Assembly (NCBI GenBank): GCA_038087875.1
Contig: CM075989.1
Location: 7,628,001 to 7,692,000 of the forward strand
DNA: 64,000 nt
Direction of reading: 5' to 3'
Origin: Malacoraja senta
Taxonomy: Eukaryota
Of this stretch, positions 33,346-56,020 are shown piece by piece. The position numbers and the translations under genes are program-made. The notes under the pieces are model-generated. The model was not told the origin of the DNA and did no database searches. It was given only the letters and a program-made list of their open reading frames with translations. Each line of letters starts with the position of its first letter. Positions within the stretch are counted from its first letter, which is position 1.

Positions 33346-33356
33346 CTCATGTACTT

Positions 33357-34468: not shown

Positions 34469-36114
34469 TGCGACAGCCTTCCCCACAGTCTGCGACCAGC
34501 AACCCTTACTAACCATATGCTAACTTACTAACCAACTATGTCCAAGAATAGAGAGAAATCACCATGCAGGCTGGAGCCATTCCACTGCAGGTGAACATGC
34601 TGCTTATTTGGTTCGAGAAGCCTTGTATTATGATATCTCAGTTGACGATTATCCCATTTTGGCAATTTGGCAATTATTCACGTATGAGTTCCAGAAAAAC
34701 AGTGCATTTTCAGTTAAACTAAAAATAGGTGGAAAAAGGAGGAATTGAAACGATTGCCAGAACCCAGAAGGTTGAGAAACACCGCGATGTTGAGGCTCAG
34801 CGGGAAGTAACACTGAAGTCAGCATTTGGCAACCAAGTTCTCACTAGTTTTAGAGCACAGGGTAACGCTGACATCCAGCATTGTCAGTATTCCCGGCACT
34901 CTGCTTTGCAATAACTTTAGAATGGCAACACCAGTGCCATGTTCTGCTATTCCACTCCTCCGGGGACGTGATGTTTAGATTTTAGAGATACAGGCTCTTT
35001 GGACACCGAATCCATGCTGACCATTGATCGCCCCATTCATTATCTCTCCGTCACCCCACTTCTGCGCCCTACACATTAGGGGCAATTTACAGAAGCCAAT
35101 TGACCACAAACCTGCAGGTCTTTGGGATGTGGGAGAAAACCCACATGGTCACAGCGTGGATGTGTAAACTGCATACAGACAGCACCTGTAGTCAGGATCG
35201 AACCTGGGTCACTGATACTGTGAGGCAGCAGCTCCACAGCTGCGCCACCGTGCCACACTTGATGTTGTAAAAACATTCAGGATGTGATCGTCTGTGCAAG
35301 GCCAGCATTTTTTGCCCACCCACGCCCCCCGGAGGACGGGAGGGAGCTGCGCCCTGGAATGGCTGTAGTGGTGAAGGTACGTTATGGTGCCACTGAGTCT
35401 CTCACTTGGGCCACCACCACCCTGCTGTGGGCCTGAAGTCACACGTAAGGCTGAGCTCCTTCCTGGAAAGGGAGTGGTGGTGGGGTCTACTTCCACCAGA
35501 TAGTATCACGGCCACCACGACTGTGGCTGCCTCTGATTCCAGGTTTATTTCATTCCCGGCTGCTGTCGAGGCTCAGGGGAGAGTGAGATCCCCCCTCCCC
35601 ACCTGGACAGAGCGAGGGACCTGGTCCTCACTCCATCTGGGGTAGGGGAGTGGGAGAAGGGTCTCAGATTCTCTTGCTCTGTTCGGGGGGAGGGGGCCTC
35701 ACTCTGTTCGGAGGGAGGAATCGAAGGGGTTCGCTCACTCTGTCCAGGAGGGGGGGGGGGTTGAGGTCAGGGAGGGGCGATGGAGATGTCCCTCACTCTA
35801 TCTTGAGGGAGGGGGGGTTGGGAGGAGGGACCCTTGCACCACCCGGGGACCGCTTGCACTGTTGACAGGTGATGGTCCATCCGGGTGGAGAGTGGTCTCT
35901 CACTCCATCGTGGTGGTCTCGGTCTGTCATGGGGGGGGGGGGGAGGTCTAACGTTGTGAGGGATCCTAACATTCCTGACTAACTGCTGACTGCGGGTGCC
36001 TGCAGTGCGGAGATTGATTGCTCTTTGAGAAGCCCTTCCCTGGGTGATGCCAGGTGATGTAGAGCTGAGAGGAGACCTGATGGGAGTTTGTAAAATTATG
36101 AGGGGCATAGATAG

Positions 36115-37157
36115 TAGGTATGTTACAATACTTACCTTCAGCGGCGCTGCAATTCTGCCACTGGCCTTGTGGGCGATTTTGGCGCCTTTGAGGGGGGGGG
36201 GCGGGGTTAAAACGCATGTTTCTCCTACCTTGTCCTGGTTAATATTTCGTTGGAGTGCAAGCTTTTGTGAAGAATCGTTCCGACGGGCGTTCTGTGTATT
36301 TTTTTTTAATTCGCCCTACAATTTCAGCGCTGGAGTTATTTTAAAATCAGCTCCTAAAGCCGTCAACGCCGACAACGGGGACGGATTTCATGCATGGGAC
36401 AGGTAAACGAAAGCCGTTTATTTTATGTATAAAAGTGCTTCTTAAGATGCCTTTAATTCACATTTTAAGTTGCGAAACGGTGATTTTTCCCCCCAAACGA
36501 ACCGGCAGTATTTTTTATGCTGATACGGGTTTAAATTCACCGCAAATGCAACGTTCCAAATGATCGCGTTCCAGAAAAACCCACTCGCAAGATGATTTAA
36601 ATGGCCATTAATTTACAGGTATTAAACATTCAATTCCTTCAATTTGGCCTATAAATCCATGACAATGAGATTTAAAAATTATGTTATATTGTGAATTCTT
36701 GTGTGAATGTTATTTGGACACTTAGGCTATTTAAAAATGTTAATCTATTCTTAAGAAATTGATAGATGTTTAGATCTAGTAATTGAATTTTGTAATTAGC
36801 TACAATTAGGTAACTAACTAATTATATGCTTTAATTTCATGTCATCTAAGTAAAATTGTTTCATATTTGTTTCAGAATGCTTCAATCTATAATAACTGAA
36901 AATTTCTTTCAGTTCTCTTAATTTTTAAGAAAGTTATGGGCTTTTGACTGTCCTCGATCACAGCTTTTGTGTTAAGTCAATGGAAAAGCAATAGGGAACA
37001 AGATGCTAATTTCCAAGTATGAAAATGGCAATAATCTTTTTAATACTGAAGATATGAAAGTGAATTAGGTGTCAAATTAAACTCCTTTTTATGCTTTATC
37101 TGATGGGATAAATTACAGACTTGATTTTTTAAATCTCAAAATTTTGTAACATTGCTA
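36115..37157. mobile_element. About 1.04-kb non-autonomous DNA transposon (hAT-like TAG...CTA ends) nested in a CR1 fragment
   Basis: TIRs TAGGTATGTTACAA / TTGTAACATTGCTA (12 of 14 match); TAGATAG duplicated on both flanks; removal restores CR1 sequence ggcatagatagggtagacag. Confidence 0.85.
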
Positions 37158-37515
37158 TAGATAGGGTAGACAGACAGAAAGTTTTTCCCAGGGTGAAAAT
37201 ATCAAAGACTAGAGGACATAGCTGTAAGGTTGGAGGAGAAAGGTTTAAGGTGATGTGCGGGAATTTTTTTTTTACACAGTGTGGTGGGTGCCTGGAACGT
37301 GCTGCCAGGAGTGGAGGTGGTGGCGTATAAGAGGCGTTTACATGGGCACGTGCTAAATGCAGGGAATGAAGGGGTATTGATCATGTTCACACTGAGATTT
37401 AACTTTGCATCATGTTCGGCACAAACACCGTGGGGCCCCAGGCATGTTCTTGTTCTGTACTGTTCTATGTGAAAGGTGCCTTAGGAACAACAGACTGTTG
37501 AATCTTGGTACTTAC

Positions 37516-37632
37516 AGCTATGAGGCCGATTACAGCTTTGAAGAGTGCCCAGAAGATGCCCACTCCCAGGATGATGGCACGCGGCAGGGAAAGCTGAGGG
37601 GCTCCTGCCAACAGGAGAACACACAGACAGAG
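37516..37632 (-). CDS. Membrane protein coding exon 5 (LCLCVLLLAGAPQLSLPRAIILGVGIFWALFKAVIGLIA)
   Basis: cccctgcag acceptor, GTAAGT donor; 117 nt, phase 0 to 0. Confidence 0.9.
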
Positions 37633-37814
37633 CTGCAGGGGAGAAGTGAGCATGGTTAGCGAGACTGCGCGGGTTGCGTTTCAGTCAGAAAGCTCCACAG
37701 CGTCCACGGTACTCGCTACTATTGGGTGAGGGGAACAGTGCAGTGGATGCACTTTGGCACCAACAAGAGGTGTCAGTCACTGCCACTAGGAAGCACCATC
37801 AAGCTTGTTCCATC

Positions 37815-38198
37815 AACACTCACACTCACTCACACACTCTCACTCACTTACTCACTCACTCACTCATACTCACTCATTCACACTCACTCACTCACTCTCT
37901 CACACACTCACTCACACATAGTCATACTCTCACACTCACTCACTCTCACTCACTAACTCTCACTCACTAACTCTCACTATCACTCACACTCACTCACTAA
38001 CTCTCACTCACTCTCATTCACTATCACACTCACTCACTCACTCTCACATGCCCACAGCATGCACAATCCAGCGTGTGGATTTTTGCGCCCACTCAGTGTG
38101 CGTGTGCACACCAACGTAGTAATGCACATACTGTATATAATGTGCATTCAAGCACACGCATACACACACACGCGCACACACACACACACACGCGCGCG

Positions 38199-38237
<39 letters not shown>

Positions 38238-38240
38238 GCG

Positions 38241-38282
<42 letters not shown>

Positions 38283-38285
38283 AAC
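37815..38285. repeat. Compound microsatellite: (CACT)n, then (CA)n with (CG) patches
   Basis: Directly visible. Confidence 0.95.
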
Positions 38286-38953
38286 ATATGCACTTGTTTA
38301 CGCTCACAGACACGGAATTAAAAGAACACCTGTCATTGTCGACACGGGCATGCGTCACAGTGGAGCAGCTGGTTGAGCCACTGCCTCACAGCACCAGAGA
38401 CCCAGGTTCAAACCTGACATTGGGTGCTGTCTGTGTAGAGCCTGTACATTCTCCCTGTGACCACGTAGGTTTCCTCTGGATATCTCAGTTTCCTCCCACA
38501 TCCCAAATACATGTGGGTTCGTAGGATAATTCGCCTCTGTAAAGTGCCTCCTAGTGTGTAGGGATGAGAAGATGGGATAACAAAGAACTAGTCGAATGGG
38601 TGATCGATGGTTGGCATGGACCTGGTGGGCTGAAGGGCCTGTTTCCATGCTGTATCTCTCAACCGAACTACAGTCATGGTTAACATGAACCCACTGACTT
38701 GCTGAACAAACCCACCTGGTCCACCATGTCCTTCAGGGGATGAAGTCGGCCATCCTACCCTGGTCTGGCTTGACTCCAGACCCATCAATGGGGGCGGATC
38801 TGTAGCAGTTGATAGGAGACTTTATGGTAGGGGGCCAGACCCTACTGCAGGAGGGTCAGTGAGAGGAGGTGTGGTATTAAGGTAATCAGCAAACGACCCA
38901 GCAAATAAAAACATCCTGCAGCGAGGCACGAATGTGGTTGTTCCCAACGTCAC

Positions 38954-39133
38954 CTGAGCTTGAAGGTCGAAGGTCACCAGAGAAAAGCAGAGGTTCAGGG
39001 TGAGGTAGTGGGACTGCACGCTCTCCAGGGCCCCGCCCACGCGAAACGCCATGAAGTTGGGTCTCTTGATCAGGTAGCAGAGGCTCGCTGCCATCAGGAA
39101 CACCCCGAACGCCACGATGCACGCAAACCGGAT
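38954..39133 (-). CDS. Membrane protein coding exon 4 (IRFACIVAFGVFLMAASLCYLIKRPNFMAFRVGGALESVQSHYLTLNLCFSLVTFDLQAQ)
   Basis: tttcag acceptor, GTGAC donor; 180 nt, phase 0 to 0. Confidence 0.9.
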
Positions 39134-41877
39134 CTGAAACACACCAGGCAAAGTCGGGACAGTCGGTGCAAGGCTGCAGGAAGGAACTGCAGATGCTGGT
39201 TTAAACCGAAGATAGACACAAAAAGCTGGAGTAAGTCAGCGGGACAGGCAACATCTCTGGGGAGAAGGAATGGATGACATTTCGGGTCGAGACCCTTCTT
39301 CAGACTTGTACTGTTCAGTTACTCCAGCTTTTTTTGTCTATCTGCGGTGCAAGGCTGGACGGTTTGTCAGTCAGTACCTCAGCCCTCTGCTCTCAGCGCT
39401 TCCTCTCTGCCATCGACTGAGTATTTGGAATATTGTGGGCAATTTTTGCCCCATATATGAGGAAGGATGTGCTGGCGCTGAAGGGGGTCCAGAGGAGGCT
39501 TACGAAAATGATCCCAGGAATCAGTAGGTTAACATGTGATGAGCATTTAACGGCACTGGGCCTGTACTCGCTGGAGTTTAGAAGGATGAGGGGGGGACCT
39601 CATTGAAACTTACCGAATAGTGAAAGGCCTGGATAGAGTAAATGTGGTGAGGATATTTCCACTAGTGGGAGAGTCTAGGAGACAGAGGCCATAGTCTCAA
39701 AATAAAAGGATGTACATTTAGAAAGGAGGTAAGGAAGAATTTCTTTAGTCAGAGGGTGGTGAATTTGTGGAATTAATTGCCACAGACGGCTGTGGAGGCC
39801 GTCAATGGTTATTTTTCAGGCGCAGATTGACAAGACTCTTGACCAGTAGGGGTGTCAATGGTTATGGGGAGAAGGCAGAATGGGGTTGAGAGGGAAAGGT
39901 AGATTAGCCATGATTAAACGGCAGAGTACACTTGATGGGCTGAATGGCCATATTCTGCTCCTACAACTTATGAACTTGAGCACACAATGCACTACCCTGA
40001 ACGCTCATCCCCTCCACCACCTGTGTGCGCCACTTGCAAAATGCATCGAGATGCTCAACCAGACCAGTCCAGCAGCACCTCCCAAGCTCAAGGCTGGTGC
40101 CGTCAAGGAAGAGAAGGAGATCAGGTTCTTCTGCAATTTGCCCACTCCCCTAGTTCATATTGACAAGGGTCTCCACGGCGTCTAACACCAGCAACTCCCT
40201 GCCCAACAGCACTGTGGGGTTGTTCCAACAGCAACGGGACCCGACCTTCACACGTGCGGCCAGAGTGGACAATAAATGTTGGTCCAGGCCCCATGAGGGA
40301 AGCAAGAGAGGAAATTGTGGAGACTCTGAACACGTTTTTTCTGATTCCAGTAGAGAGATGCTCATTGTTTCTGGCTGAATATGTTCAAAGAGAAACAGTA
40401 ATGTCTCTGCGATCAGTGGGCAGAACTGCAGATAAAACATGTTCTCGGCAAAAGGGAGGTTGCAGATAAGGAGGAAAGGGGGAGAGATAGAATTCAGGGT
40501 GGGGGCTGTGAGAGGAGCAGTGAACAATAAATGATCATTTCAGGGGAGGTGCACATAGGAAGGATAAATAAATGTACAAAATTGGAGTTCAAGAAATTAG
40601 AATTATTGAATTGTACCACAAAGAAACAGGCCCCTACATGTCCATGGCGACCATCCTACTTGACTACATTAATTTTACATCCATCTGTGCCTTGCTCAAT
40701 CAAATGTATGTGGGTTGGATGAGTGTACATGGGACACGTTGGGCAAGTAGGGCCGAAGGGCTGGGCCCACGCTGTATGATTCTGTGAAATGAATATACCT
40801 GCCATTGGGAGGGATTGGTAGTGCAGATTCACCAAACTGTTTCTGGGGCTGTGCCCATACCGAATGCAAAAGGATTGAGAAGACTAGAGTTGTATTCACT
40901 TTAAAGAACAAGAGATGATCTCATTAAAACTGAAGAAATTATTTCAGGCAGACAGCCAACCTTGCACAATCCATTCATCGCTTTGTAACTTCACGCTGCC
41001 TTCACACCGCTTACAAAGCAACCCATCAAAGTATCTTTGGGAAACATGCACACAGAGCTTCCAGTTCCATTATCAGAATTATTTATAAATATAACTGACA
41101 AAGCAAATGAGAATGCAGAACTGAACACTCAGCAAACAGAGGACATAAACTAAAGGGTGAGCAGAGAGGAAAGTTCTTTGAGATTCAGTGCAGGAAGGAA
41201 CTGCAGATGCTGGTTTATACCGAAGATAGACACAGAATGCTGGAGCAGCTCAGTGAGCAGCTCAGGCAGCATCTCTGGAGAAAAGGAAGAGGTGACACAA
41301 AATGCTGGAGTAACTCAGCGGGTCAGGCAGCACCTTTGAGATTCTGCTCGATCCCTTTCATGTTGATTCATAGAAATGAAATCAATAAGCCATTGTTATG
41401 TGATCTCCACACCAGCAGGAAAACACTGGCACTGCTGAAAACTAATTTAACAGCTACGGAACAAGGTGCCTTCCTGCAAAGGAGGATGCAGTTGCATAAA
41501 CTAGTGAAACGCTCTGAAATTTACAGAAGGTTCTTGCATAAGTGCCAACACTGGAGACTGGTGCACCAGTATTTATCAACACGTCAATTAAAAGTGGAAA
41601 TATTTTGTAGGTTTAAGAAGGAACTGCAGATGCTGGAAAATCGAAGGTAGACAAAAAATGCTGGAGAAACTCACCCGCTGAGTTTCTCCAGCATTTTTGT
41701 CTACCTAATATTTTGTAGGTTGTGCTTTGACATTGGTTTATTATTTAGGTTACCCACCGCTCTGCACCACCCCTCTGACGTGCAGTGCTCTCTTGGCACT
41801 GACCCTCCAACAGGGTGGCACTCCGTCTGAACGGCATCCACTTCCGCTTTGATATTGTGGGACTTCTACTGGCGAAA

Positions 41878-42351
41878 GGCACAAAATGCTGGAGTAACTC
41901 AGAGAGTCAGACGGCATCCCTGGATAGATGACGGTTCGGGTCGGGATCCTTCCTCAGACAGATTGCATGGGTGGGGAGAAGGAAATCTGGAGGAGTGGAG
42001 GGGCAGGACGGGGCGTGGCAGGTCATGGGTGAACACAGGCGGAGGGGGGGGGGGGCGGGCAATGGGGATTGATAGGCAGATTGTTGGACAAAGGCCAGAT
42101 GTTAACACACACAATGTGCGAGACAAAAGGATTATGGAGTTGCAAATGGTGAAGTTAGAGGATTGACAAGGAGTGAATTGTCGGTGGAAGGAGAGGGGAG
42201 GGTGGAGATGGGTGCGAGTTCAGTCAGGGCTCAGGTGGGGAATGGGGGTGGGAGGAGGAAAGTGGAGGGGGGGGGGGGGAAGGGGGTTGGTTTTTAGCAG
42301 TTACCTAAAGTTGGTGAATTCAATATTCATACCGTTGGGATGTAAGCTACC
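41878..42351 (-). mobile_element. Penelope-like element 3' end: ORF C-terminus, pyrimidine-rich UTR and hammerhead-like motif
   Basis: 42351-42301 encodes GSLHPNGMNIEFTNFR*, resembling the end of the PLE GIY-YIG domain; related EQHLIFCLGCL near 13300; CTGAGGA...GAACCGTC at 41957-41930. Confidence 0.7.
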
Positions 42352-42746
42352 CACTTTAACTGCTACTCTCTCCGCAGCTGCTGCCTGACCTGCTAAGTTT
42401 TTCCAGCGATTTCAGTTTTTATTTGAGATTTCCAGCATCTGTTGGTGTGTGGATAGTCGCACCAGACAGCACGCTTCACTGGAGCTAAGGAAACAGTGTT
42501 GTGTGTTGTGCAAGCAACAGGCGCTCTGAGAGACAAGGTGACAGCCGTTTGTGCAGTGAAGTTCATACGTTCTAGGAGCAGAATTTGGTCATTTGGCCCA
42601 TCAAGTCTACTCCGCCATTCAATCGTGGCTGATCTATCGTTCCTGCTCAACCCCATTCTCCTGCCTTCTCCCCACAACCCCTGACACCCGTAATAATCAA
42701 GATCTGTCAAACCCGGCCTTAAAATTCTCGAATCATCGACACTCAC

Positions 42747-42892
42747 CACAACGGCTTTCTTCTCCTTGGGTTCTGCTGCGATGAAGTTCACCACAGAACG
42801 GACTAAAAGCAACAAGATGGACAGAATAAACGCCAGCAGCTCCTGCTGATTCTCCTGCAGAACCCCACGTAACATGTAGTAAATGCAGAACA
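42747..42892 (-). CDS. Membrane protein coding exon 3 (VFCIYYMLRGVLQENQQELLAFILSILLLLVRSVVNFIAAEPKEKKAVV)
   Basis: (CT)n plus ccag acceptor, GTGAGT donor; 146 nt, phase 1 to 0; hydrophobic translation. Confidence 0.9.
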
Positions 42893-45289
42893 CTGGAGAG
42901 AGAGAGGGAGAGGCAGAGAGAGCAGTGGATTAGTCCCAGAGTCACTGGCAGCACTCGTACTAATAAAGCATCTTAATCAACCGGGCTTCCAACTAAAATT
43001 CAATGGATCTTCGGGAGGCCAAGAACACAAAGACACAGAGATCTTAGTGAGAGGAGAGGCTATAATCAGGAAGCAATTGGAACAAGCACATTTTAATCAG
43101 CAGTCAGCATTGGATGCGAGCTGGGATAATGTTTGGTTGAAACTTGGTGCAAGTTTATCATGGACAACAAAACTGTGAGCTAAAGAGAGACACAAAAAGC
43201 TGGTGTAACTCAGCGGGACAGGCAGCATCTCTGGAGAGAAGGAATGGGTGACGTTTCGGGTCGAGACACTTCTTCAGACTGAAAGTTACGGGAAAGGGAA
43301 ACGAGAGAGATAGAAGATGATGTAGAGAGATAAAGAATAATGATGAATGAAAGATATGCAAAAAAGCAAGGATGATAAAGGAAACAGGCTATTGTCAGCT
43401 GTTTGTTGGGTGAAAATGATGAGCTGATGAGCTAAAACTTTGAGCGAAAATATACACAAAGTACTGGAGTAACAGCGGCTCAGGCAGCTTTGGAGAACAT
43501 GGATAGGTGACGTTTCAGGTCGGGACAAACTGTGAACTGTCATGTTTTACAGAGGCTTGTTTGAATGTTTCAGCAACTTAGAGTAGGTGATTGTAATGAG
43601 TTGGGAGGCTATTGACCTTATGAATGGAATTTGGACCTGATGATCACCTTAGGGTTTGTGTGTAAGTGTAATAAAAATAGCTGCGTAGGAAAGATCAGCA
43701 TATGCTGGTTTAAATCGAAGAGACACAAAAAACTGGTGTAACTTAGCGGGTCAGACAGCATCTCTGGAGGAAAGGCATAGGTGAGGTGTCAGGTGACCCT
43801 TCTTCAGAGTCTCGTCCCGATAATGTCACCTATTTCTTTTCTCCAGAGATGCTGTCTGACCATCTGAGTTAATAAAAAAATGCTGATGTCCAAGTTAACC
43901 ACAAGTTCCATTTTGTGAAGGCACTCAGAGTTTTAAGTTTCTTCCTGTTTGCTGGCAGAAGTGGCAGTAGAGGAAATGTTCGAGTGAGTGATTGCAAATA
44001 TCCTGACCGGCTGGGTACAGGCATTAGCAGTTCACTCGGTGTCAGAACAGTTAGTGTGAGGCTGGATGCAGGGGTCAGACACATACCGAGCAGTGACCTC
44101 TCCAGTGTATGACCCTTGCACATAAAAGGACTGGGTCAGAGGAGATAAAAGATGGGACCTTTAATTGTGGGAGAATGAGCCACTTTGCCTGCAACTGTGC
44201 GACATTCCATTGACAGTCTTGGGGGGGGGGGGGGGGGGGCATATTCAGGCGTGATACCCCAAGTATCTTAGCCTGAGAAAGTGCTGAAGAACGGCACACA
44301 TACACATTGTGTCAGCATAAATGACGCTGGTCAGCTATTTGTGATGTTGCCCCACTGATCAAGACAACAGCCAGTGTGTCAGTAGGATGAGTTAATAACA
44401 GGAGATGGGATTGCATCGGGCAGCCAGCAGTAGACGTGGGGTAGGAGGCAGGCGCAGCTGGTAGACCTGCTGCTGCACAGCGCCAGTGACCCAGGTTTGA
44501 TCCTGGTCTTGGGTGCTGCCTGTGTGGAGCTTGCACATCCTCCCTGTGACCGCGTGGGTTTCCTACGGGTGCATTGGGATTTTATGATCGTTTCCGTGAT
44601 TTTGGTCTTTGCTGCCTTTGACGTCTCCCATTCGGGAGAAAACTAGTTTCCTCCGACATCCCAAAGATGTGCGTGTTTGGGGGTTAATTGGCTTCTGTAA
44701 AATTGCTCCGAGCATGTGGGGAGTGGACGTGAGCGGGAGATAACATAGAACTAGTGTGAATGGGTGATCGATGGTCAGGCCAAAGCCTGTATCTGTCAAC
44801 TAAAAACTAAATCAGAAGAAAGGAGATCCCTTGTGCGTAAAATAACATTCCCTGCTTTTCCTGCTTGGAATGGAAAATCCACCCATTACTCGAATTTAGG
44901 AAGTGCAGTTTGAAACACTCTATGCTCATCCCAATTGGGCAATCTTTAATCAGGCATAATAAGGAAACAAGTCTAAATGGGAGACTGATTTATTTTGTGT
45001 AGATCGACTAGGTTTGTGTTCAGAAATGATTTGTACTGTGTAGGAACAAGGAAATTGCAGATGCTGGTTTACCAAGAAAAGACGGAAAATACTGGAGTTA
45101 CTCAGCAGGTCAGGCAACATCCCTGGACAATATGGATAGGTAATGCTTCGTACCCTGTGTATGAGTTATGGTGAAACTGGACGAAATGATCACGAGAAAG
45201 GAACATTGAGCAATTTCAGTCAGTGCTTGCGACAGATCAGATTTGTGGTAGATTTGAAGGGTGTGCTAATTCAAGTTCAAGTCCACATT

Positions 45290-46100
45290 TATTGTCACAT
45301 GCACCAATTAGGGTTGAGTGATATTTAAGTTTCCATACAGCCATGCAAGTAAAAAGAACACAATACACGATAGAGTTTAACATAAACATCCATCACGGTG
45401 TAATCAGCATTCCTCACTGTGATGGAAGGCGATAAAGTTCAGACAATCTTCCTCCTTTGTACACCCGTGGTCGGGGCCTTGAACCCTCCGCAGTCGCCGC
45501 TACGGATGGCCTGATGTACAAGCCCTCTCGCGGGATGATCGAAACGCCGACGTCGGGACGGATCAGAACACAATTTGGAGTTCCCGAATCGGCTGCTTCT
45601 TACCGGAGACCGCGGTTTCACGATGTTAAAGACCACGGGCCAGCGGTCGGAGCATTTCTTCTGGTGATCCCCGGCAAGGGATCCCAGGCTCCACGATGGT
45701 AAGTCCACGCCGCTCTCGCGGCTAGAAGCTCTGAAGACCGCTGCAGTCACCATGCCACCGCAGTCGGAGCTCCAAAGCTGGCGATCCTCGGCAAAAGATC
45801 CCAGGCTCCGCGATGGTAAGTCCGCGCCCCGCCTGCTGCTGAAGCTCTGGGCCGGTCTCCGGTCTGGGGAGGCCGCACCAAACCAGTTGTTAGGCCGCGA
45901 GGAAGGCGAAGATGCGACAAGGAGAAAAGTCACATCTCCGTCGAGGTAAGTGACTGAAAACGGTTTCCCCCTATTCCCCCCCGACCACCCCCCACATAAA
46001 ACATACCGAGAAATTAAACCATACATTCCGACGTGCTAAAAATAACAAAAAAAGTCGAAAGGACAGACGGGCTGCTGGCGAGGCTGCCGCTCGTGGAGCC
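45290..46100 (-). mobile_element. CpG-rich interspersed retro-repeat of about 0.8 kb; same family as 47170-47973(+)
   Basis: Reverse-complement similarity to 47170-47973; AATAAA plus short tandem tail. Confidence 0.7.
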
Positions 46101-47169
46101 ACCCGAAGGGCTAGGCTCCAGCCACAAACGCAGTCAGTACATTTTGAGGGAGCAGAGATGGGTGACGGGAAGTCCATGCACCAGCACGGGTTAAACCCCA
46201 TAGATTCCACCAACAATCACCCCCTGTACGGATCTCTGAAACCAGACTGCTCCAGGACTCTGACAATCGATTACATTTGATGGTCCCCACTGTGGCTGCA
46301 GCATAATGGGCAGTTTCTCCAGGGTGAATGGTTTACAGTATTAGGTGCGGCACAGTGGCGCAGTGCTGGAGTTGCTGCCTTAAAGCGCCATAGACATGTT
46401 TTTTTTTATCCTAACTACAAGTGTTGTCTGTACGGACTTTGCACATTTTCTCTGTGATCGTGTGGGTTTTCTCTGGGTGCTCTCGTTTCCTCCCACCCTC
46501 CGGTCAATGCATACTCGGTGGACCTAAGGGCCTGTTTCTGCGCTGTATCTCTAAACTAAACTAAAGTATCATCCATCAACGATGGATTCTGGTTTGTGCC
46601 ATTAGCTCAGGAATGTCAGTCTACATTCGAGACAGAAGGGATTGTATTTAGGGAGAGAAATCTCACAGGCAGAAACAGCACAAAACACAACAAGAACAAT
46701 AGAAACTATCTAGCTTGCTGTTGCCCTGGGATAGAGAGGCTCTGAGACAGTCTCAGGATAGGTGGCTGTCGCCAGAGTCACACTGAAGGGTTCAGGCACA
46801 AAGCTGTCCCCTTGTGCAGTCTGTCGATGAAAAACCCAGAATGTGTCTTGACTCCAGACGCTGCTAATGCCGATACACAATTAAAGGAGATTTCCGTTGC
46901 AGCAGCAACCTCACAAGCTGCATTTTGGCCATCCAGAATTCGACATACCTTGTTGAGCTAAGTTCAGTGACTATTCCACAGAAACATTTTCTGATACAAT
47001 TGCGTGAACAGTTAAAAGATGTCAGGCAGGATCAGACTGTTCACTGGATGTTTCTTTTACAATTTCAGTGGAACACAAAATCCACGACATGCCAAGTGTA
47101 TAAAATCATGCAACTAACAGTATTATATAAAGTATGATCAGAATATCACCAGATTATATATTACCATTG

Positions 47170-47973
47170 TTTATCACAGTGTGTTCGCTATTTCGACTAT
47201 TTTTGTTTTTTTGGTGAGTCTAATGTTAGCATTGGTTTCTCTTGGTGTGTCTTGTGCTGCGGGTGGTGGGGGGGAAAAGGGGGAAACCGCTTTCAGTCGC
47301 CTCCTTGGCGGAGAGGCGACTTTTTCCATGTCGCCTCCCTCGCCGCCTAACACCATGGATTGGAGCGGCCTTTCCCGGAGTTGGGCCCAGAGTTTCAGCA
47401 GCGGGCGCAGCGTGGACTTTATCCATCGCGGAGCGGGCGAACCCTTGCTGGGGGTCGCCAGAAAGGTGTGCTCCGATCGCTGGCCTGGTGACTTTGGCAT
47501 CGTGGAGCTGTGGTCTGCGGAGCTTCTAGCCACGGGCGTGACGTGGACTTACCATCCGGAGTCTGGGATCCCTTGCTGGGGATACTCGGAGAAGAGCTCC
47601 GACCGCCGGCCTGCGGCCTATAACATCCTGAAGCCGCGGTCTCTGGTAGGAAAGTGGCCAATTAGGGCAATTCAAGCCGCGAAGTGTGTTCGACCGTCAC
47701 AACGTCGGAGTTTCGATCATCCCGATGAGAGGGCCTGTACATCGGGCCGTCCGTAGCGGCGACTACAGAGGGTTCATGTCCCCGACCATGGATGAACAAA
47801 GGAGGACTGACTGAACTTTGTTGCCTTCCACCACAGTGAAGAATGCTGTGGTGGATGTTTGTGTTAAATTCTATTGTGTATTGTGTGTTCTTTTTTAAGT
47901 GTATCGCTGCTGGCAAATTCATTTCACTGCACCTTCGGGTGCATATGACGAATAAAATTGACTTTGACTTTGA
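47170..47973 (+). mobile_element. CpG-rich interspersed retro-repeat ending in AATAAA-(TTGACT)n
   Basis: Tail aataaaattgactttgactttga; homologous to 45290-46100. Confidence 0.7.
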
Positions 47974-48035
47974 CAATCTACACTGTCTTATCAAACCACA
48001 AAGTGCTAGAGGAACTCAGTGGGTCAGGCAGCATC

Positions 48036-48862
48036 TCAATTTCAATTTGTTTATTTGTCTTTTGGACAAATTTGTCGTTTGGACCCCTTGAGGTCCAAAC
48101 GAAATGTCGTTTCTGCAGCCATACATCACAAAACGAAGAAGACCCGAGACACAACACAATTTACACATACATCCATCACAGCGCTGTGATGGAAGGCAAA
48201 AACACGTATCTCTCCACTGCACTCCCCCCCCGATGTCAGAGTCAAAGTCAAAGCCCCTGGCGGGCGATGGTGATTATCCCGCGGCCATTAAAGCCACGCC
48301 GGGTGATGCAAGGTCGCGCACCGGGTCTTGGTGTTAGAGCCCCGGCGCGCGCTCGCAAAGTCCGGCGGCCATTCCAAGCCGCGCGGGGGGATAAAGCCCC
48401 GCTCCAGGTGCTCTTCAACCCCGCAACTCGGGCGGGAGAAGTCGCCGCTGTGGAAGCCCCGAAAATCGGTCTCCCACTAGGGGACCCGCAGGCTTCCGGA
48501 GTTGCCGTCCGCCAGACCCGCGGTTGTAGCCTCCGAATCTCCGGGGGTCGGGTCGCAGCAGCGATTGTTTCCACCCGCTCCGGACTCGGCCAGCCCCGTG
48601 ACGGTGAGTAGTCCGCAACTCTGCAACTGGAGCCCCAGGTCGTTCCTGCTGGAGGCCGCTCCACGTTGCCCAGCCCCAACGACAACGGAGACCCGACAAA
48701 GAAAAGGTCGGGTCTCCCGTGCAGGGGAAAGATTTCAAAGTCCCCCCCCCCCCCCCCACCCCACCCCACCCCCACCCCCCCACACACATACCCCGACAAA
48801 AAAATAAATAAAAAACGACATAAACATAAAAACGAGACAAAAATAATAAAAAAGACAGACGG
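48036..48862 (-). mobile_element. Related CpG-rich retro-repeat, more distant subfamily
   Basis: Shares catccatcac...ctgtgatggaaggc and the general layout with the two copies above; truncates a Penelope-derived repeat. Confidence 0.6.
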
Positions 48863-49200
48863 ACTGCAGTGATGTTGTGTGAAGTTGGGACATGCGGACA
48901 AGTTGGGCCAAAGGGCCTGCTTCCACGCTGTAACATTCTATGACTCTAAGTGAATGGACAGAAGGTGTTTCAGGTCGGAACCCTTCTTCAGACTGATCTA
49001 TCTGTCTATCAGCTGCCTTAACTATCTTAAAAACCGCAACTGAGACAGGCTGTAACCATCTGAATTCCAATTGAGTCTTAGAGTCATTCAGCGTGGAAAC
49101 AGGCCCCTCGGCCCAACCTGCCCACACCGACCAACATGTTCTATCTACACTAGTCCCACCTGCCTGCATTTGGCCCACATCCCTCTAAACCTGGTCGATC

Positions 49201-50174
49201 AACCAACACAGAGAAAAAGCTCATGATAAATGGCACAGAATAGAAAGAGTATCTGAAATAAAATTTCTTGGAGTATTAATTGACAACAAATTAACTTGGA
49301 AATCTCACATGAATTATATAAAAGCCACAATATCCAAATCAATTGCAATACTGAATAAAGCCCGAGACCTACTAAATCAAGCCTCCCTGTATATGTTGTA
49401 CTGCTCCCTCATACTCCCATACATGATCTACTGTGTGGAGGTATGGGGAAACACATACAAAACAAATACACACCAATCTACATCCTCCAAAAAAGAGCAA
49501 TACGAATTATACATAAAACCACCTACAATCAACAAAACCATTATTTATCAGACTAAAAACATTAAAATTTCAAGATCTGACAGATTTATAAAACTATCCA
49601 AATTATGTTCAAAGCAGCTAACCAGCAATTGCCTTGTAATATCCAGGGGTTGTTCCAACGGAGAGAAAGCAAACACAACCTGAGAGGAACCTATATATTC
49701 GAAAAACCGGCAATAAGAACTAATGCAAAACTCCATTGTGTTACAGCAAAGGGTGTTAGTCTCTGGAATAACTGCCATGATGAGCTGAAAAAATGTAAGA
49801 CTCTATTCAAACTAAAACACTCTTCAGAAACAAAAGATTGAATGGTTATGAGCTGGACAGTGATTTTCTTTTCTGTTTGGTTATTCTTGTTTGTGGACTG
49901 TTCAACAGATTTTGGGTCCATTTGTTCCCATTATTTTGTTTTTCCATGAAATGTATAGAAAATAAGAGGGGGTAGGACCAGAAAAGTTTTCGAACTTCTT
50001 CTTACCCCTTTTGAACATGAACGATATTATTTGTATTATTTGAGTTACTTATTTGCTTGTTTTCCTTTGTGTTTTATTTTATTTTTTATTGCTTATAAGT
50101 TTATTTGTGTTTGTATTTTTTAACATGTTCAATAAATATATAATAAAAAAATTAAAATTAAAAACTAAAAAAAA
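49201..50174 (+). mobile_element. AT-rich 5'-truncated LINE of a different clade (Crack/Daphne/L2-like) with an A-rich tail
   Basis: KFLGVLIDNKLTWKSH...LYCSLILPYMIYCVEVWGNTYKTN RT C-terminus; AATAAA and A-rich tail; CGATC on both flanks; splits a host repeat. Confidence 0.8.
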
Positions 50175-52233
50175 CGATCCTATCCATGTGCCTGTCTATA
50201 TGTTTCTTAAACGTTGCGATAATACCCGCCTCAACTACCTCCTCTGGCATATAGTTGTTTAATTTCCAGTATATTGATATTTAAGAATATTGTTTTACTT
50301 TGTGCCATGGTGGTGGGTATTGTTTTGTATTGTATATATTATTCTTGTAAGTAATTGATTTTAAATTATTTTTGGTAAAAAAAAAAATGAGTGACCGCAC
50401 CCTGGACTAAACATAATCTGTAACCCAGTTACTTTTCCTTTCCTTCCACAACCATCAGACACGTGAACACCAGCTGAACATCTCCACCCTGAACACAAGG
50501 AAACCGTACACTCCGACCACAGACCAGAGACAAAACTCTGCCTTGTTCCTAATGGGCTAATAAGGTTTAATTCATGAAATCATTAACTGTGATCTCAGTG
50601 AGCACGTGGTGAAAGTCCATTCATTGTCGTTAAGTAATTTAGAATCCCAGTCTACTAACTACTCACATTCCAGCTGTAATGAGCACAGGGGAAACCAGAC
50701 ATTTTTTAAAAGGTGCCTTGATTGACCCCTCTATTAATCGCCTCATTAAACATTTTGGATATCTCTTCAAAAAACTCCAACACGTTTCTGAGACACTATT
50801 TCTGATGCAAAAAGTTATTCTGACTGTCCCTAATCAGTCCATGTCAATCCAAATGCTGGTAGATCCTGTCCCTCAGAATCCCCTCCAGTAATTTACACAC
50901 CACTCATCGACCTTTACACTTTAGACTTTAGAGATACAGCACAGCAACAGGCTCTTCGGCCCACTGAGATCCATGCCAACCAACAATCACTAATCTACAC
51001 ACACTAGGGACAATTTTACAGCTTACCAAAGCCAATCAACCTACAAACCTGTACGTCTTTGAGTGTGGGAGGAAACCGGAGCACCTGGAGAAAACCTATG
51101 TGGTCACACGGAGAACGTACAAATTTAGCACCCATTGTCAGGATTGAACCCGGGTCCCTGGCACAGTAAGGCAGCAACTCTACTGTTGCACCACTGTGTC
51201 ACCCGTTAGTTTGCCTGTAATTCCCTGGCTTCTCCTTGCTGGCCTTCGTAACAATTGTACAACATTAGCCATCCTTCAGTCACCTGGAACTTCACCTGTG
51301 CCTGAAGATGAAGTCTGCTTAACTGATATTTCAATAACCTCCTCAAATATATCTGGCGATGAGTGTCTAAACTGAAAGAGCCCATTCCTCAGACTGGTCA
51401 AGGAATGTCTTAACATGACGATGTACTAGCCTCCTCCATCTCTGTCCTTGAATCTCCCCATCCCACCACCAGGACTGGCCCAACAAAGTGATAAACAGTG
51501 CTCCACACCAGGAGTTCTTGGACTCCTTTAATATTAGCTCCAAAGCCCATGAGTTCTCATGTTATCAGGTCAAACATGGTCAGGGAAAACCCCACCTAAT
51601 TATCATGCACCGTCCTCGCACACCTGAAGATCTGATGCTCCGTCATGGAACAAGCTCAGAGTAACAAACATCAGATACCTCACCTGTCAATGATGCCAAC
51701 ATACTTCACCCTAAGGAAACTTTCCATCGTTCTATGTGGCATGACCACATGATGAATGGGACAGAACATAGAAGAAAACTCTCGAGGTTTGACAGGTTGG
51801 ACAGGGCAATATAGGATAACGTTCATCGTGGTCCCACCCTCAAGCTTGGTGGTCGGCCATTCAGGACTACGATAAGGAGTAATATCTTCGTAGTGGGTGG
51901 TGAACCTTTTGAATTCTCTGCCCGAGAGAGTCACTGAGCATATTCAAGTCAATTCTTTCACAGTTTAGATATTAAGAGATTTGGAATTAGTGCAGGAAAG
52001 AAGTGCTGATGTTAAAGACGAGCCATGACCGTTGAATGGGAGAGAGGGGCTGAATGGCTGGCTCTCACTTCCAGCTCCTCTGCTCATGATGGATTTATGG
52101 TGAGGGACAGCGTAAAACACATTTGCACTAGAACGACATTCCAATTGTTTAACTTTCGTGTAAAAAAAAGAATCACAGCAATTTCTAGTCACGTTGTTAT
52201 TCGTCAACAGAACAGAAACTGAACGGACCATAC

Positions 52234-52410
52234 CTATGCCAATGAGCTGTATCACTGAGATGGCTACATCTTCCTTGTCTAATCCAGTAGTTCAGTTTTG
52301 TTCTGACGTACAATGCTTGCAATGTTAGCACCTAGCACAGTCAGGAGGGACAGGATTGCTGCAGAGACGTAGATCTTCTCTAACCAGGAGAGCTCTGAAC
52401 ATTGCTTGAC
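52234..52410 (-). CDS. Membrane protein coding exon 2 (VKQCSELSWLEKIYVSAAILSLLTVLGANIASIVRQNKTE/TGLDKEDVAISVIQLIGI), with an apparent 1-nt deletion
   Basis: Polypyrimidine tract plus ttag acceptor, GTATGG donor; hydrophobic helices lie in two frames that join if one A is restored near 52291; 177 nt where phase requires 178. Confidence 0.8.
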
Positions 52411-53229
52411 CTAAGAAAAGAGATGAGAAGGTGAGATGGAAACCAGACATTGAATTATCTTCTTGATACAATATTTACTTGATAAAACTCCAGTAAAATG
52501 AAACAAGCGAACTGGATGCTGAGTCCAATACAACATGAGTCCATGACGCTTCCTCACTGCCCTTCCCACTGAGTCCACTCCCACCATCGATCGCCCCTAC
52601 ACTGTTATCCCACTTTTGCATCCTACACACTAGAGGCGATTTACAGAAGCTAATTAACCTCCAAACCTGCAAGTCTTTGGAGTGTGGGGGGAAACCAGAG
52701 CACCCTGAGAAAACCCTTGCAGTCACTAGGAGAACATACAAACTCCGTGCAGACAGCACTATAGTCAGGATTGAACCAGATCTCTGGCATTGTAAGGCAG
52801 CAACTCTACTGCTGCTCCACCGTGTCGCCCGAGGTTATGCCCGAGTGGAAAGGTTATGGAGTTTCACAAAGACAATCTCTGAAGGGTACCCACTACCCAG
52901 CCTGTGACCTGTTCTTGTCGCCATAGTATTTTTGTGGCAGATCAAGTTGAGTGTCTAGTCAATGGTGACCCCAAGATGTTGTCAACATGGGGACTCAGCA
53001 ATGGTGACGTCATTGAATGTCAAGGGTTGGTGGGTTAGAGTCTTTCCTGTTGGAGATGGTTATTGCCAAGCACATTTGTGACATGAAGTTCACATGCTGT
53101 CTCACTTGCAACAGCATGCCATGCCTGAACTTTACCCAGGTCTTGCTGCATGCAGGCATGGGCTTCTTTGGACACTCAGGGGAAAAAAGGAAGTCAAGAG
53201 CTGAATGGCAAAGTGAACATGAAAGACAA

Positions 53230-55622
53230 GGATCAATAATAATTTTCCCAATATAATTTAACTTTCCCAATATAGACTGGGAAATTATAGTGTGAAGGGT
53301 TTAAATGGGGTGCAATTCCTCAAAAGTGTTCAGGAGAGTTTTCTTAAGCAGTATGTAGAGGCCCCCACACATGAGAGGGCAACACTGGAAATTGGGAAGG
53401 GCAAATTAATGAAGTGTTTGTGGAGGGGTGACCACAATTCCATTAGGTTTAAGATAGTTATGGATAGGGACGGAGAGGGTCCATGTGTTAAAAGGCTCAA
53501 CTGGGGTAAGGCCAACTTTGAGGGTATGGGAGAAGGTCTCGCTCAAGTTGACTGGAGCAGGTTATTTGAGGGGAAAGGAACATCGGCCAAGTGGTATGTT
53601 TTTAAAAGTGTGCTGATGAAAGCTCAGGATATGTACGTCCCCGTTAGAGTGAAGGGCAAAGCAGGCAAACGTTAAGAAGCTTGGCTGACGAGGGAAATTG
53701 AGGCATTGGTCAAAAACAAGAAGGATGCATGGGACAGGTATAGGCAGCTGGGATCAAGTGCATCCCTGAAGGCGTTTCGGGAACGAAGGAGTAAACTGAA
53801 AAAGAAGGCCAAAAAGGTGTCAGGAGATAGCTCTGGCAAGTAGCATAAAGGACAATCCCAAAAGACTTTATAAATAATTAAGGGTGAAAAGGGAAACTAC
53901 AGAGTGGGACCGCTCAGGAATCAAAGCGATCACCTCCGTGTGGAGCCACAGGCGATGGGCAAGGTCCTCAATGAGTATTTCTCCTCTTTATTTACTGAGG
54001 AGAAAAACCGTAGGACGGAGGAACTTGCAGTCAATGGAAGTGTCTTGAGAGCAGTCAGTGTTACCGTCAAAGATATCCAGGGCCTGATCAGATATATCCG
54101 AGGATATTGCGGGAAACTAGAGAGGAAATTGGGGGAGCCCTAGTTGAAATTTACGAGTCGTCCTTAAATACAGGAGAGGTGCCGGAAGACTGGAGGGTGG
54201 CAAATGTTGTGCTTCTTTTCAAGACGGGCTGCAGTGAAAATGCTGGGAACTATAGGCTTAACATCTGTAGTTGATAAGTTACTAGAGAGTATTCTGATGG
54301 ATAGGTCATACACGCATTTGGACGGGCAAAGGCTGATTAGGGATAGCCAGCCAGGTTTTGTACGTGGGAGGTCGTGTCTCACAAATCTGATTGATTTTTT
54401 TGAAGACGTGACCAAAAAGGTCGATGAGGGCAGAGCTGTAGATGTTGTGTACATGGATTTCAGGAAGGTGTTCGACAAGGTTCTGCATGGTAGGCTGCTC
54501 TGGAAGGTTAGATCGCATGGGATCCAAGGAGAGATAGCTGAATGGATAGCAAATTGGCTCCATGGAAGGAAGCAGAGGTTGATGGTGGAAGATTGTTTCT
54601 CGGACTGGAGGCCTGTGACTAGTGGTGTGCCTCAGGGTTGGGTGCTGGGCCCGTTACTGTTTGTTATCTACATCAATGATTTGGATGGGAACATACAGGG
54701 CAAGATTAGCAAGTTTGCTGATGATACAAAAGTTACTAGTTTTGCAAATAATGAAGATGGTTGTGAAAGATTGCCGCAGGATCTGGATCGATTGGCCAGG
54801 TGGGCGGAGGAATGGTTGATGGAATTTAATACAGAGAAGTGTGAGGTGTTGCATTTTGGGATGTCGAACAAGGACAGGACCTACACAGTAAATAGTAGGC
54901 CTCTGGGTAGTGTTGTAGAGCTGAGGGATCTAGGAGTACAGGTGCATGCTTCCTTGAACGTCGAGTCGCAGGTAGATAAGATGGCCAAAAAGGCTTTTGG
55001 CACTTTGGCCTTCATCAGTCAGAGTATTGAGTATAGAAGTTGGGAGGTCATGTTACAGTTGTATAAGACGTTGGTGAGACCGCATCTAGAATATTGTGTT
55101 CAGATTTGAGCACCATGTTATAGGAAAGATATTATGAAGCTTGAAAGGGTTCCGAAAAGATTTACGAGGATGTTGCCAGGACTAGAAGGTGTGAGCTATA
55201 GGGAGAGGTTGAGTAGGCTAGGTCTCTATTCCATGGAGTGCAGGAGGATGAGGGGTGATCTTATAGAGGTGTACAAAATCATGAGAGGAATAGATCGGGT
55301 AGATGCACAGAGTCTCTTGCCCAGAGTAGGAGAATCGAGGACCAGAGGACGTAGGTTCAAGTTGAAAGGGAAAAGATTTAATAGGAATCCGAGGGGTAAC
55401 TTTTTCACACAAAGGGTGGTGGGTGTATGGAACAAGCTGCCAGAGGAGGTAGTTGAGGCTGGGACTGTCCCATGATTTAAGTAACATTTAGACAGGTACA
55501 TGGATAGGACAGGTTTGGAGGGATATGGATCAAGCGCAGGCAAGTGGGACTAGTGTAGCTGGGACATTGTTGGCCGGTGTGGGCAAGTAGGGCCGAAGTT
55601 CCCACACTGTATCACTCTGACT
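53230..55622 (+). mobile_element. Decayed CR1 LINE, about 2.4 kb of ORF2 plus 3' end
   Basis: GRSCLTNL, VVYMDFRK, GVPQG, FADD and LVRPHLEYC motifs with stops and frameshifts. Confidence 0.95.
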
Positions 55623-56020
55623 CATAATCCTGCTGAATGAGATACAAAGCTTAAGGCCAAGTGACAAACACCTGATTCTATTTCTTTAACGAGAAAGATT
55701 CCTAATCTAGACACAATGCACCAATGCAGCATCAATAGGTGAAAGGAGATGTTGCTCCATACACAGACGTTTAAAATTTAGCTTGCTCATTCATTTTGAT
55801 CTTATTGTTCGGAACTAAAGTGGCACCAAACCAGTGACCAGGGGTTTGAACAACCAATGGATCCTCGCTGGGAAAGGCATCAACTGGAGGGATTTGGAAA
55901 CATGGATGACCATTTCAGAATCAAAGATTTCCTCAACCTTAAGCTGAATTATGCATGTGAGCCCAGAGCTGCCCAGAGCTCTCCCATGGCACCAAAGTAA
56001 CAAACATATATCCTACTTAC

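What the first reader, a model, noticed from the sequence alone, without database searches (positions are those of the whole stretch)
43240..43285. Minimal hammerhead-ribozyme motif at the core of a very abundant Penelope-derived repeat
Seen: the commonest short repeat here has the consensus gt-CTGAAGA-a-GGGTC-tc-GACCC-GAAAC-GTC-ac. That is the hammerhead core CUGANGA, a stem II hairpin, GAAA, a palindromic ACGU in place of stem III, and a GUC cleavage triplet. Good copies: 43277-43250(-), 56456-56429(-, AUC), near 39300(-), near 3320(-), near 8440(+); CUGACGA variants near 16070 and 62743. One copy (41957-41930) lies downstream of a Penelope GIY-YIG-type C-terminus. Established: Penelope-like elements carry minimal type I hammerheads with a palindromic stem III thought to cleave as dimers. 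Inference: this genome is seeded with non-autonomous ribozyme-bearing elements, many inside introns of both genes, where cleavage-competent copies could cut pre-mRNA. Stem I looks very short (about 2 bp), so monomers may be inactive.
Basis: partly seen in the sequence, partly recalled or inferred. Interest (0 to 1): 0.72.

Follow-up and report, generated by a model that had tools for sequence, protein, structure and literature searches.

The report
Decayed Penelope hammerheads in skate introns
This is the short end-piece of a known kind of jumping gene (a Penelope-like element) that carries a minimal self-cutting RNA motif and litters this stretch of a skate genome, but the copies are decaying and mostly sit back-to-back as hairpins, so they are unlikely to cut host RNA.

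Summary
The motif is real. [quoted passage not shown] It lies at the 5' end of a ~95-nt unit with an optional ~35-nt tail; 48 fragments cover 7% of the window. The host is a skate. 5' ends cluster just upstream of the hammerhead, not at its cut site, so mostly uncleaved RNA was copied. The host-cleavage idea is not supported: 0 of 28 copies are fully intact, core CpGs decay like the rest, sense copies are not depleted in introns (14 of 22), helix I is 2 bp, and paired copies lie on opposite strands, giving hairpins instead of ribozyme dimers. The PLE link rests on architecture and a 16-codon ORF end; no full-length element was reachable. Verdict: new member of a known kind, interest low.

The parts
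43250..43277 (-). Focal minimal hammerhead, C3 (43277) to C17 (43250); all core bases present, stem II has a U-C mismatch at 10.2; predicted cut between 43250 and 43249
43184..43279 (-). Focal pseudo-LTR unit without tail (3' end at about +95 from C3), sense to the DUF7789 gene, in intron 2, cut site about 360 nt upstream of the next acceptor
43280..43433 (-). Pyrimidine-rich stretch upstream of the focal hammerhead, read as a piece of PLE 3' UTR (aligns for 40 nt to the stretch upstream of copy 56456)
   Evidence: inference
43450..43526 (-). Older, 5'-truncated copy of another subfamily (lacks CUGAAGA) in tandem upstream; 79% to the focal copy
43169..43180 (+). Target duplication, copy 1 of 3 (others 43434-43445 and 43527-43537): two successive insertions at one site
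42301..42351 (-). Last 16 codons and stop of an ORF ending LHPNGMN.., like the end of a PLE GIY-YIG endonuclease
   Evidence: similar LHPNGLN in a GIY-YIG protein of PMC8557442 supplement; no database hit
41874..42300 (-). C-rich 3' UTR followed by hammerhead copy 41957 (A15.1>C) and tail-less unit
19727..19950 (.). Type example of the insertion unit: head-to-head inverted pair, left arm with tail, right arm without, 14-bp target duplication, hairpin -162/-175 kcal/mol
8350..8522 (.). Inverted pair, 12-bp target duplication, NADK intron
17129..17259 (.). Inverted pair, 13-bp target duplication
39175..39343 (.). Inverted pair, 13-bp target duplication; left arm has an intact core with a U15.2-G16.2 wobble, sense in the DUF7789 intron
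41190..41341 (-). Partial tandem of two truncated units, 11-bp target duplication; junction microhomology spans the hammerhead cut site
41612..41706 (.). Short inverted pair without hammerhead, 15-bp target duplication
43685..43872 (.). Inverted pair, 9-bp target duplication
20209..20598 (.). Two adjacent inverted pairs
56367..56696 (.). Inverted pair with 100 nt of UTR between the arms; left arm is copy 56456 (core intact, C15.2-A16.2 mismatch)
59275..59467 (.). Inverted pair, right arm cut by a later insertion
15324..15493 (.). Inverted pair whose arms share 7 non-consensus bases
13030..13335 (-). Second, older PLE-like ORF end (EQHLIFCLG) with pyrimidine-rich UTR that aligns to the stretch upstream of hammerhead copy 24287
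   Evidence: 47 of 64 bases; 0 of 100 shuffles, 1 of 28 pairs tested
30739..56110 (-). Host gene 2, DUF7789 protein, coding exons at 56110-56012, 52410-52235, 42892-42747, 39133-38945, 37608-37513, 31931-31842, 30885-30739
1..13531 (+). Host gene 1, NAD kinase (3' part)
   Evidence: NAD_kinase_C at 10.9 kb; other exons seen in translations, named from recall

Best explanation
The repeat is the pseudo-LTR end of a skate Penelope-like retroelement family, and the hammerhead is the one that PLEs carry there. Shown: motif, unit limits, optional tail, inverted pairs, target duplications, decay. Inferred mechanism: the PLE protein binds an RNA that starts at or just upstream of the hammerhead, cuts chromosomal DNA with a 9-15 nt stagger, and starts reverse transcription inside the RNA at one of two sites (about +94 and +130 from C3). 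The cDNA runs to the RNA 5' end or stops early, giving ~97-nt and ~133-nt pieces. Both DNA ends are extended, one from each start site, and the two pieces are joined head-to-head through microhomology or fold-back at the small TCAG-T-CTGA palindrome. The template is mostly uncleaved. The hammerhead matters, if at all, only in the source element, as a dimer and with help from the PLE protein. After insertion copies decay neutrally, the two essential CpGs (C11.1-G12 and C15.2-G16.2) first. In host pre-mRNA the likelier product is a long double-stranded hairpin, not a cut.
For: Match to the published min-HHR consensus, including the extra base after A9, G10.1-C11.1 and the palindromic pair. 3' ends in two clusters: 15 of 47 at +88..99 and 15 of 47 at +122..132, only 2 between, as for the two RT start sites and 30-40 nt tail of PLEs. 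13 head-to-head, 2 tail-to-tail, 1 tandem among 16 neighbour pairs within 120 nt, p=4e-6; one tail per pair in 12 of 13, p=0.001. Target duplications scoring 9 or more in 9 of 31 boundary sets vs 9 of 598 random pairs. The same architecture with 8-10 bp duplications, a 31-bp tail and an Inr-like motif is described for rotifer PLEs. 5' ends: 21 of 48 at -5..+4, 27 of 48 keep the whole hammerhead, 0 of 48 at +27..+31 by alignment; anole PLE also inserts uncleaved RNA and its hammerhead needs the protein. ORF ends upstream of two UTR-hammerhead stretches. Decay: 6 of 28 with intact core bases, 0 of 28 intact throughout; 16 of 18 changes at the four hammerhead CpG positions are C>T or G>A. Stem II probability at most 0.04 and helix I 0.00 for the four best copies.
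Against: No full-length element or RT domain was found; the ORF end is 16 codons and got no supporting database hit. The -4 cluster is partly inflated by the palindrome in fold-back pairs and by subfamily-specific UTRs that do not align to my yardstick. By eye two junctions (41296, 20500) fall within 3 nt of the cut site, so some cleaved templates are possible. Two of the 13 head-to-head pairs (7397/7469, 16007/16070) and the copy at 42367 are dissimilar to their partners and lack duplications, so they may be independent insertions. Folding programs ignore hammerhead tertiary contacts and protein help. One window only; counts are small.
Confidence: 0.85

Rival explanations
1. One reading: intact sense copies cut host pre-mRNA, as dimers in cis or trans or with help from PLE protein.
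For: Three core-intact copies (43277, 39303, 56456) lie sense to the DUF7789 gene. The anole PLE hammerhead cleaves when PLE protein is added. An upstream half copy at 43526-43450 offers a possible substrate strand on the same RNA. Tandem retrozymes are under-represented in Xenopus introns.
Against: 0 of 28 copies fully intact; neutral-rate decay; sense copies 14 of 22, no depletion; helix III duplex -1.7 kcal/mol at best, helix I 2 bp, focal stem II unstable; partners are antisense and bury the core; published min-HHR monomers do not cleave and dimers cleave poorly; 8 of 9 Xenopus dimers did not cleave; no anole RNA-seq reads end at the cut.
Confidence: 0.05
2. The unit is a self-propagating non-autonomous family (SINE-like or retro-MITE-like): short or palindromic masters are transcribed and recopied by PLE protein.
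For: Sharp 5' and 3' limits and high copy number; several subfamilies with diagnostic bases; arms of pair 15446/15448 share 7 non-consensus bases including G12>A, which a dead master could explain; the only ATG frame of the commonest subfamily stops after 17 codons while two older copies stay open through the tail.
Against: Junctions differ in every pair, so pairs are made at insertion, not copied whole; at least 4 copies run on into UTR and one into ORF; no tRNA head found and no poly(A) or simple-repeat tail. This rival changes only the source of the RNA, not the mechanism.
Confidence: 0.25
3. The hammerhead-like string is a chance or fossil resemblance, and conservation reflects a promoter or protein-binding site in the terminus.
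For: No significant covariation in this alignment (77 of 500 shuffles reach the score, no two-sided change in stem II); no Rfam hammerhead match even at E=10; no folding signal against shuffles.
Against: All 12 core positions, the extra base, G10.1-C11.1 and the palindrome match the cross-phylum consensus at the expected place in a PLE terminus; 0 matches in 100 shuffles; Rfam models expect a helix III that min-HHRs lack (inference).
Confidence: 0.05
4. The inverted pairs are MITEs of a DNA transposon.
For: Short, palindromic, abundant, with target duplications.
Against: Arms are unequal (one tail), centres vary, duplications vary from 9 to 15 bp, single and tandem copies occur, and copies run into a retroelement-like UTR and ORF end.
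Confidence: 0.02

Closest known systems
Minimal hammerheads (min-HHR) in PLE pseudo-LTRs (Cervera and de la Pena 2014, PMC4209133; read: parts 1-2 of 4 of the text, parts 1-2 of 3 of the supplement PDF)
   Same: Core CUGANGA-H, G10.1-C11.1, GAAA, palindromic CG, UC; dispersed copies tied to truncated PLEs; pairs on opposite strands 100-700 bp apart already noted there.
   Different: No cartilaginous fish among the 40 species of Fig. S3; helix I is 2 bp (GU/AC) against a 3-bp consensus, with 2-bp cases listed for Drosophila, Culex and Oikopleura; density here is 5 descriptor matches in 60.6 kb.
Poseidon of Anolis carolinensis, PAc (Frangieh et al. 2024, PMC11167929; read: parts 1-2 of 4)
   Same: Hammerhead in the pLTR, two internal RT start sites that define the tail, extension of both DNA strands, uncleaved RNA as template, protein-dependent hammerhead.
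   Different: PAc has a full ORF starting at stem II; here no full ORF was found and the clade (Poseidon or Neptune) is not determined.
Penelope families of Adineta vaga and the general PLE insertion pattern (Arkhipova et al. 2013, PMC3846280; Craig et al. 2021, PMC8557442; read: passages)
   Same: Head-to-head inverted pLTRs, tail on one arm, 8-10 bp target duplications, partial tandems, Inr-like motif, palindromes at junctions.
   Different: Here the units are almost pure pLTR (95-135 nt per arm) and very dense; duplications reach 15 bp.
Non-LTR retrozymes of animals (Li, Clavereau and Pollet 2026, 10.64898/2026.07.22.740005; read: parts 1-3 of 5)
   Same: Non-coding, derived from PLE pLTRs, type I hammerhead; one chondrichthyan was in their sample.
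   Different: Retrozymes are head-to-tail tandems with a hammerhead in each unit; here no tandem has two complete hammerheads.
Edited Penelope repeats of lizard and palindromic Harbinger repeats of frog (Porath et al. 2017, PMC5625713; read: passages)
   Same: Repeats that fold into tight dsRNA in pre-mRNA; Penelope is the heavily A-to-I edited element in lizard.
   Different: Editing was not tested here.

Membership tests
PLE minimal type I hammerhead | CUGANGA plus one extra base, GAAA, UH | tested here: met
   Majority bases in A1 and focal copy vs consensus
PLE minimal type I hammerhead | Helix II closed by G10.1-C11.1 | tested here: met
   4 bp, 90% of cells paired in 28 copies; focal copy has one mismatch
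PLE minimal type I hammerhead | Palindromic 15.2-16.2 in place of helix III | tested here: met
   CG in 13 of 28, UG in 5, the rest CpG-type decay
PLE minimal type I hammerhead | Helix I of about 3 bp or more | tested here: inconclusive
   Only 2 bp; below the consensus but equal to listed 2-bp members
PLE minimal type I hammerhead | Covariation in the helices | tested here: inconclusive
   Not above shuffles; copies of one young family have little power
PLE minimal type I hammerhead | Self-cleavage as dimer or with protein | not testable with these tools
   Needs bench work
Canonical hammerhead families in Rfam | Match to a covariance model | tested here: not met
   0 at gathering score in the window; no hammerhead among 17 matches to E=10 in 38-46 kb
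EN+ Penelope-like element terminus | Lies downstream of a GIY-YIG C-terminus | tested here: inconclusive
   16 codons with LHPNGMN 340 nt upstream of copy 41957, like LHPNGLN; second ORF end linked by UTR; no database hit
EN+ Penelope-like element terminus | Optional 30-40 nt tail, on one end of the insertion | tested here: met
   Two 3'-end clusters about 36 nt apart; 12 of 13 pairs
EN+ Penelope-like element terminus | Head-to-head inverted and partial-tandem truncated copies | tested here: met
   13 head-to-head, 1 close tandem, of 16
EN+ Penelope-like element terminus | Short variable target duplications | tested here: met
   9-15 bp in 9 of 31 boundary sets vs 9 of 598
EN+ Penelope-like element terminus | Telomerase-like RT in a full-length partner | not testable with these tools
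   No genome held; collection scans empty
Non-LTR retrozyme | Head-to-tail tandem with a complete hammerhead in at least two consecutive units | tested here: not met
   The two tandems have at most one complete hammerhead
tRNA-derived SINE | tRNA-related head and simple-repeat or poly(A) tail | tested here: not met
   No tRNA called in the window (which can miss decayed heads); 3' ends run straight into unique flanks
MITE | Equal terminal inverted repeats, fixed duplication length | tested here: not met
   Unequal arms, 9-15 bp duplications

The most novel reading that the evidence does not exclude
Skate genomes hold on the order of 10^5 near-intact minimal hammerheads (rough extrapolation from 5 in 60.6 kb), far more than the 4,000-9,000 reported for coelacanth and frog, and when the Penelope protein is expressed it binds intronic sense copies and switches them on, so that retroelement activity is coupled to cutting of host pre-mRNA; the inverted second arm acts as a built-in antisense lock that makes such insertions tolerable.
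Probability: 0.06. Interest if true: 0.7.

Novelty: new member of a known kind. Interest (0 to 1): 0.25.

Why it matters
As found, it extends PLE minimal hammerheads to a skate family that I did not find described (searches; Repbase and Dfam were not available, and the family may be filed there). Its use is as a dense natural record of the PLE insertion reaction: thousands of very short pairs with target duplications would let one test genome-wide whether each DNA end is primed from a different RT start site and whether the template is ever cleaved, both open points after the anole work. The pairs are also ready-made dsRNA hairpins in introns, likely editing substrates as in lizard. It is not evidence of a new host-regulatory ribozyme system.

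Tried and rejected
Rfam: no hammerhead match. RNAalifold on 28 copies predicted no pairs; single-copy folds were no better than shuffles. Pattern scans for the hammerhead or the ORF end found 0 loci in viral contigs, metagenome contigs and prokaryote genomes. Protein searches with the ORF end gave nothing usable: 0 of 45 candidates, no Atlas hit, and 2 hits that are repetitive bacterial-type proteins and were rejected as chance. The possible ORF start in the pLTR found no homologue. No A>G excess on the sense strand (2.2% vs T>C 2.4%), so no sign of edited templates. Arm-to-arm similarity did not separate fold-back from two-template insertion. One search used a yardstick offset by one base; end positions were redone. 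The Fisher test was run with 8 instead of 9 duplicated units (p=2.5e-7, an undercount). Lunse et al. 2016 is not held; I saw it only as cited in PMC6765202. One of two supplement files of PMC4209133 could not be searched and the bioRxiv supplements of Li et al., which list their chondrichthyan families, are closed; either could already hold this family. A hammerhead-like CUGAUGA..GAAA at 43424(+) lacks the UH site and was set aside as chance. Earlier scan findings: none like this sequence; the 8 shown concern other genomes and were not used.

Full report
Observation. The minus strand at 43277-43250 reads CUGAAGA, an extra A, a stem II hairpin, GAAA, CG, UC, with GU before and AC after. A descriptor for the minimal hammerhead gives 5 matches in the window and none in each of 100 dinucleotide shuffles. 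Rfam has no match at gathering score and no hammerhead among 17 weak matches in 38-46 kb. Stem II is 4 bp with a CUCG loop; the 5-bp form with a 2-nt loop cannot close.

Host and genes. An exon at 42.7-42.9 kb is DUF7789 and is 90% and 88% identical to proteins of Rhinoraja longicauda and Leucoraja erinacea, 83% to Pristis, 68% to Heptranchias, so the host is most likely a skate. That gene runs on the minus strand from 56110 to 30739. NAD kinase lies on the plus strand up to 13531. The focal copy is sense in intron 2 of the DUF7789 gene, with its predicted cut about 360 nt upstream of the acceptor at 42892.

The repeat. A profile from 12 window copies finds 48 fragments covering 4,458 of 60,560 bases outside the poly-G gap. 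With one query each, it gives 43 fragments against 29 for a tRNA-SINE-like repeat, 18 for a LINE-tail-like repeat and one MITE-like element (the names of those three are from recall). The hammerhead is at the 5' end of the unit. Counted from C3, 3' ends fall at +88..99 in 15 of 47 fragments and +122..132 in 15 of 47, with 2 between, 3 beyond and 12 shorter. 5' ends fall at -5..+4 in 21 of 48, further upstream in 6, inside the hammerhead in 9, at the cut site (+27..31) in 0 and further in for 12. By eye two junctions (41296, 20500) lie within 3 nt of the cut. The -4 cluster is partly inflated by a native TCAG-T-CTGA palindrome and by UTRs of other subfamilies that do not align.

Insertion architecture. 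Of 16 neighbour pairs within 120 nt, 13 are head-to-head with hammerhead ends inside, 2 tail-to-tail, 1 tandem (p=4e-6). In 12 of the 13 exactly one arm has the tail (p=0.001). Direct repeats scoring 9 or more flank 9 of 31 boundary sets (some sets are alternatives for the same locus) against 9 of 598 random pairs; lengths are 9-15 bp and they enclose whole pairs, so a pair is one event. Two loosely spaced pairs and the copy at 42367 lack duplications and are dissimilar to their partners, so they may be separate insertions. The focal copy and an older copy at 43450-43526 sit between three copies of one target, which suggests two insertions at one site. Inverted truncated copies, a 30-40 nt tail on one end and 8-10 bp duplications are the described PLE pattern (PMC8557442 passages; PMC3846280 passages).

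Link to a PLE ORF. Copy 41957 follows 340 nt of C-rich sequence and the last 16 codons of a frame ending GSLHPNGMNIEFTNFR*. A GIY-YIG protein in the supplement of PMC8557442 has LHPNGLN at the end of its nuclease. A second ORF end, EQHLIFCLG at 13329, has a UTR that aligns to the stretch upstream of copy 24287 (1 of 28 pairs tested, low-complexity sequence). That these are PLE ends is partly recalled knowledge; database searches with so short a piece gave no support. The assignment rests mainly on the hammerhead plus architecture.

Is the ribozyme alive in the copies? Of 28 copies aligned (those of the 48 that cover most of the hammerhead), 6 keep all core bases and 0 also keep a 4-bp stem II, C15.2-G16.2 and both helix I pairs; two (19855, 39303) pass if a U-G wobble is allowed. 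Non-CpG core positions differ from the majority in 5.4% of cells against 11.8% in the rest of the unit (p=0.001), or 8.6% without subfamily-diagnostic columns (p=0.09); my trimming of 5' ends favours the core. Using only the 3' half of the core in 23 rows, rare changes are 7.0% against 5.9% (p=0.68), and the four hammerhead CpG positions change in 19.6% against 21.7% for body CpGs; 16 of 18 are C>T or G>A. So the core was kept in source elements and is not kept after insertion. Covariation does not exceed shuffles. In folding ensembles stem II has probability at most 0.04 and helix I 0.00 for 43277, 19855, 39303 and 56456; the ACGU duplex is -1.7 kcal/mol; inverted units fold to -70 to -218 kcal/mol on either strand. 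Sense copies are 3 of 7 in NADK and 11 of 15 between DUF7789 exons, 14 of 22, no depletion (low power).

What is known. PMC4209133 defines this motif, reports no monomer cleavage and low dimer cleavage, and notes pairs on opposite strands; its 40 species include no cartilaginous fish. PMC11167929 shows for the anole PLE that RT starts at two internal sites bounding the tail, both DNA strands are extended, hammerhead mutants insert normally, cleavage needs the protein and no RNA reads end at the cut. The 2026 preprint derives tandem retrozymes from pLTRs and found cleavage in 1 of 9 dimers. PMC5625713 reports heavy A-to-I editing of Penelope in lizard.

Mechanism. Shown here: unit limits, tail, pairing, duplications, decay. 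Inferred: RNA starting near the hammerhead (the TCAGT there resembles an initiator; recalled consensus, and an Inr-like motif is noted) is copied from two internal start sites onto the two ends of a staggered cut, and the cDNAs are joined at their 5' ends. Fold-back on one template and use of two templates were not separated. Whether short masters propagate on their own is open (rival 2). In host transcripts the pairs should form dsRNA that buries the core.

Verdict. Observation confirmed with corrections; PLE origin supported; pre-mRNA cleavage not supported. New member of a known kind; interest 0.25. The density (5 descriptor matches in 60.6 kb) would mean about 10^5 motifs if typical of a genome of 2-3 Gb (size recalled), but one gene-rich window cannot establish that.

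Noticed in passing
window 25708-26808 and 30401-31500, with 26970-30400 between: 1.1 kb including the last DUF7789 coding exon is present twice at 99.7% on either side of a 200-N gap and 3.2 kb of near-pure G; probably an assembly artefact.
   Followed up: partly
window about 52285, minus strand: DUF7789 exon 2 changes frame relative to skate and sawfish proteins, in a short A run; sequencing error or a loss-of-function allele.
   Followed up: partly
window 43172-43200, minus strand: The 3' end of the focal copy plus flank reads like a splice acceptor (pyrimidine run then TTAG); possible cryptic exon, untested.
   Followed up: no
window 16560-16951: MITE-like element with 53-nt inverted ends at 92%, single in the window.
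   Followed up: no
window 33449-34519(-), 54168-55475(+), 49189-49683(+): LINE reverse-transcriptase fragments; the first two hit RVT_1, CR1-like by recall.
   Followed up: no
window 12765-13010 and 28 other places: Second abundant short repeat, tRNA-SINE-like by recall, also often in inverted neighbours.
   Followed up: no
window 45120(-), 41673(-), 16982(+) against 57801(+): The only ATG in the unit opens a frame that runs through the tail in two older copies but stops after 17 codons in the commonest subfamily; may mark the PLE ORF start and its loss.
   Followed up: partly
window 15324-15493: Both arms share 7 non-consensus bases, three of them G>A at CpGs; gene conversion between arms or a dead master.
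   Followed up: partly
window 58000-59000: GC-rich stretch with tandem arrays upstream of the first DUF7789 coding exon; possible promoter island.
   Followed up: no
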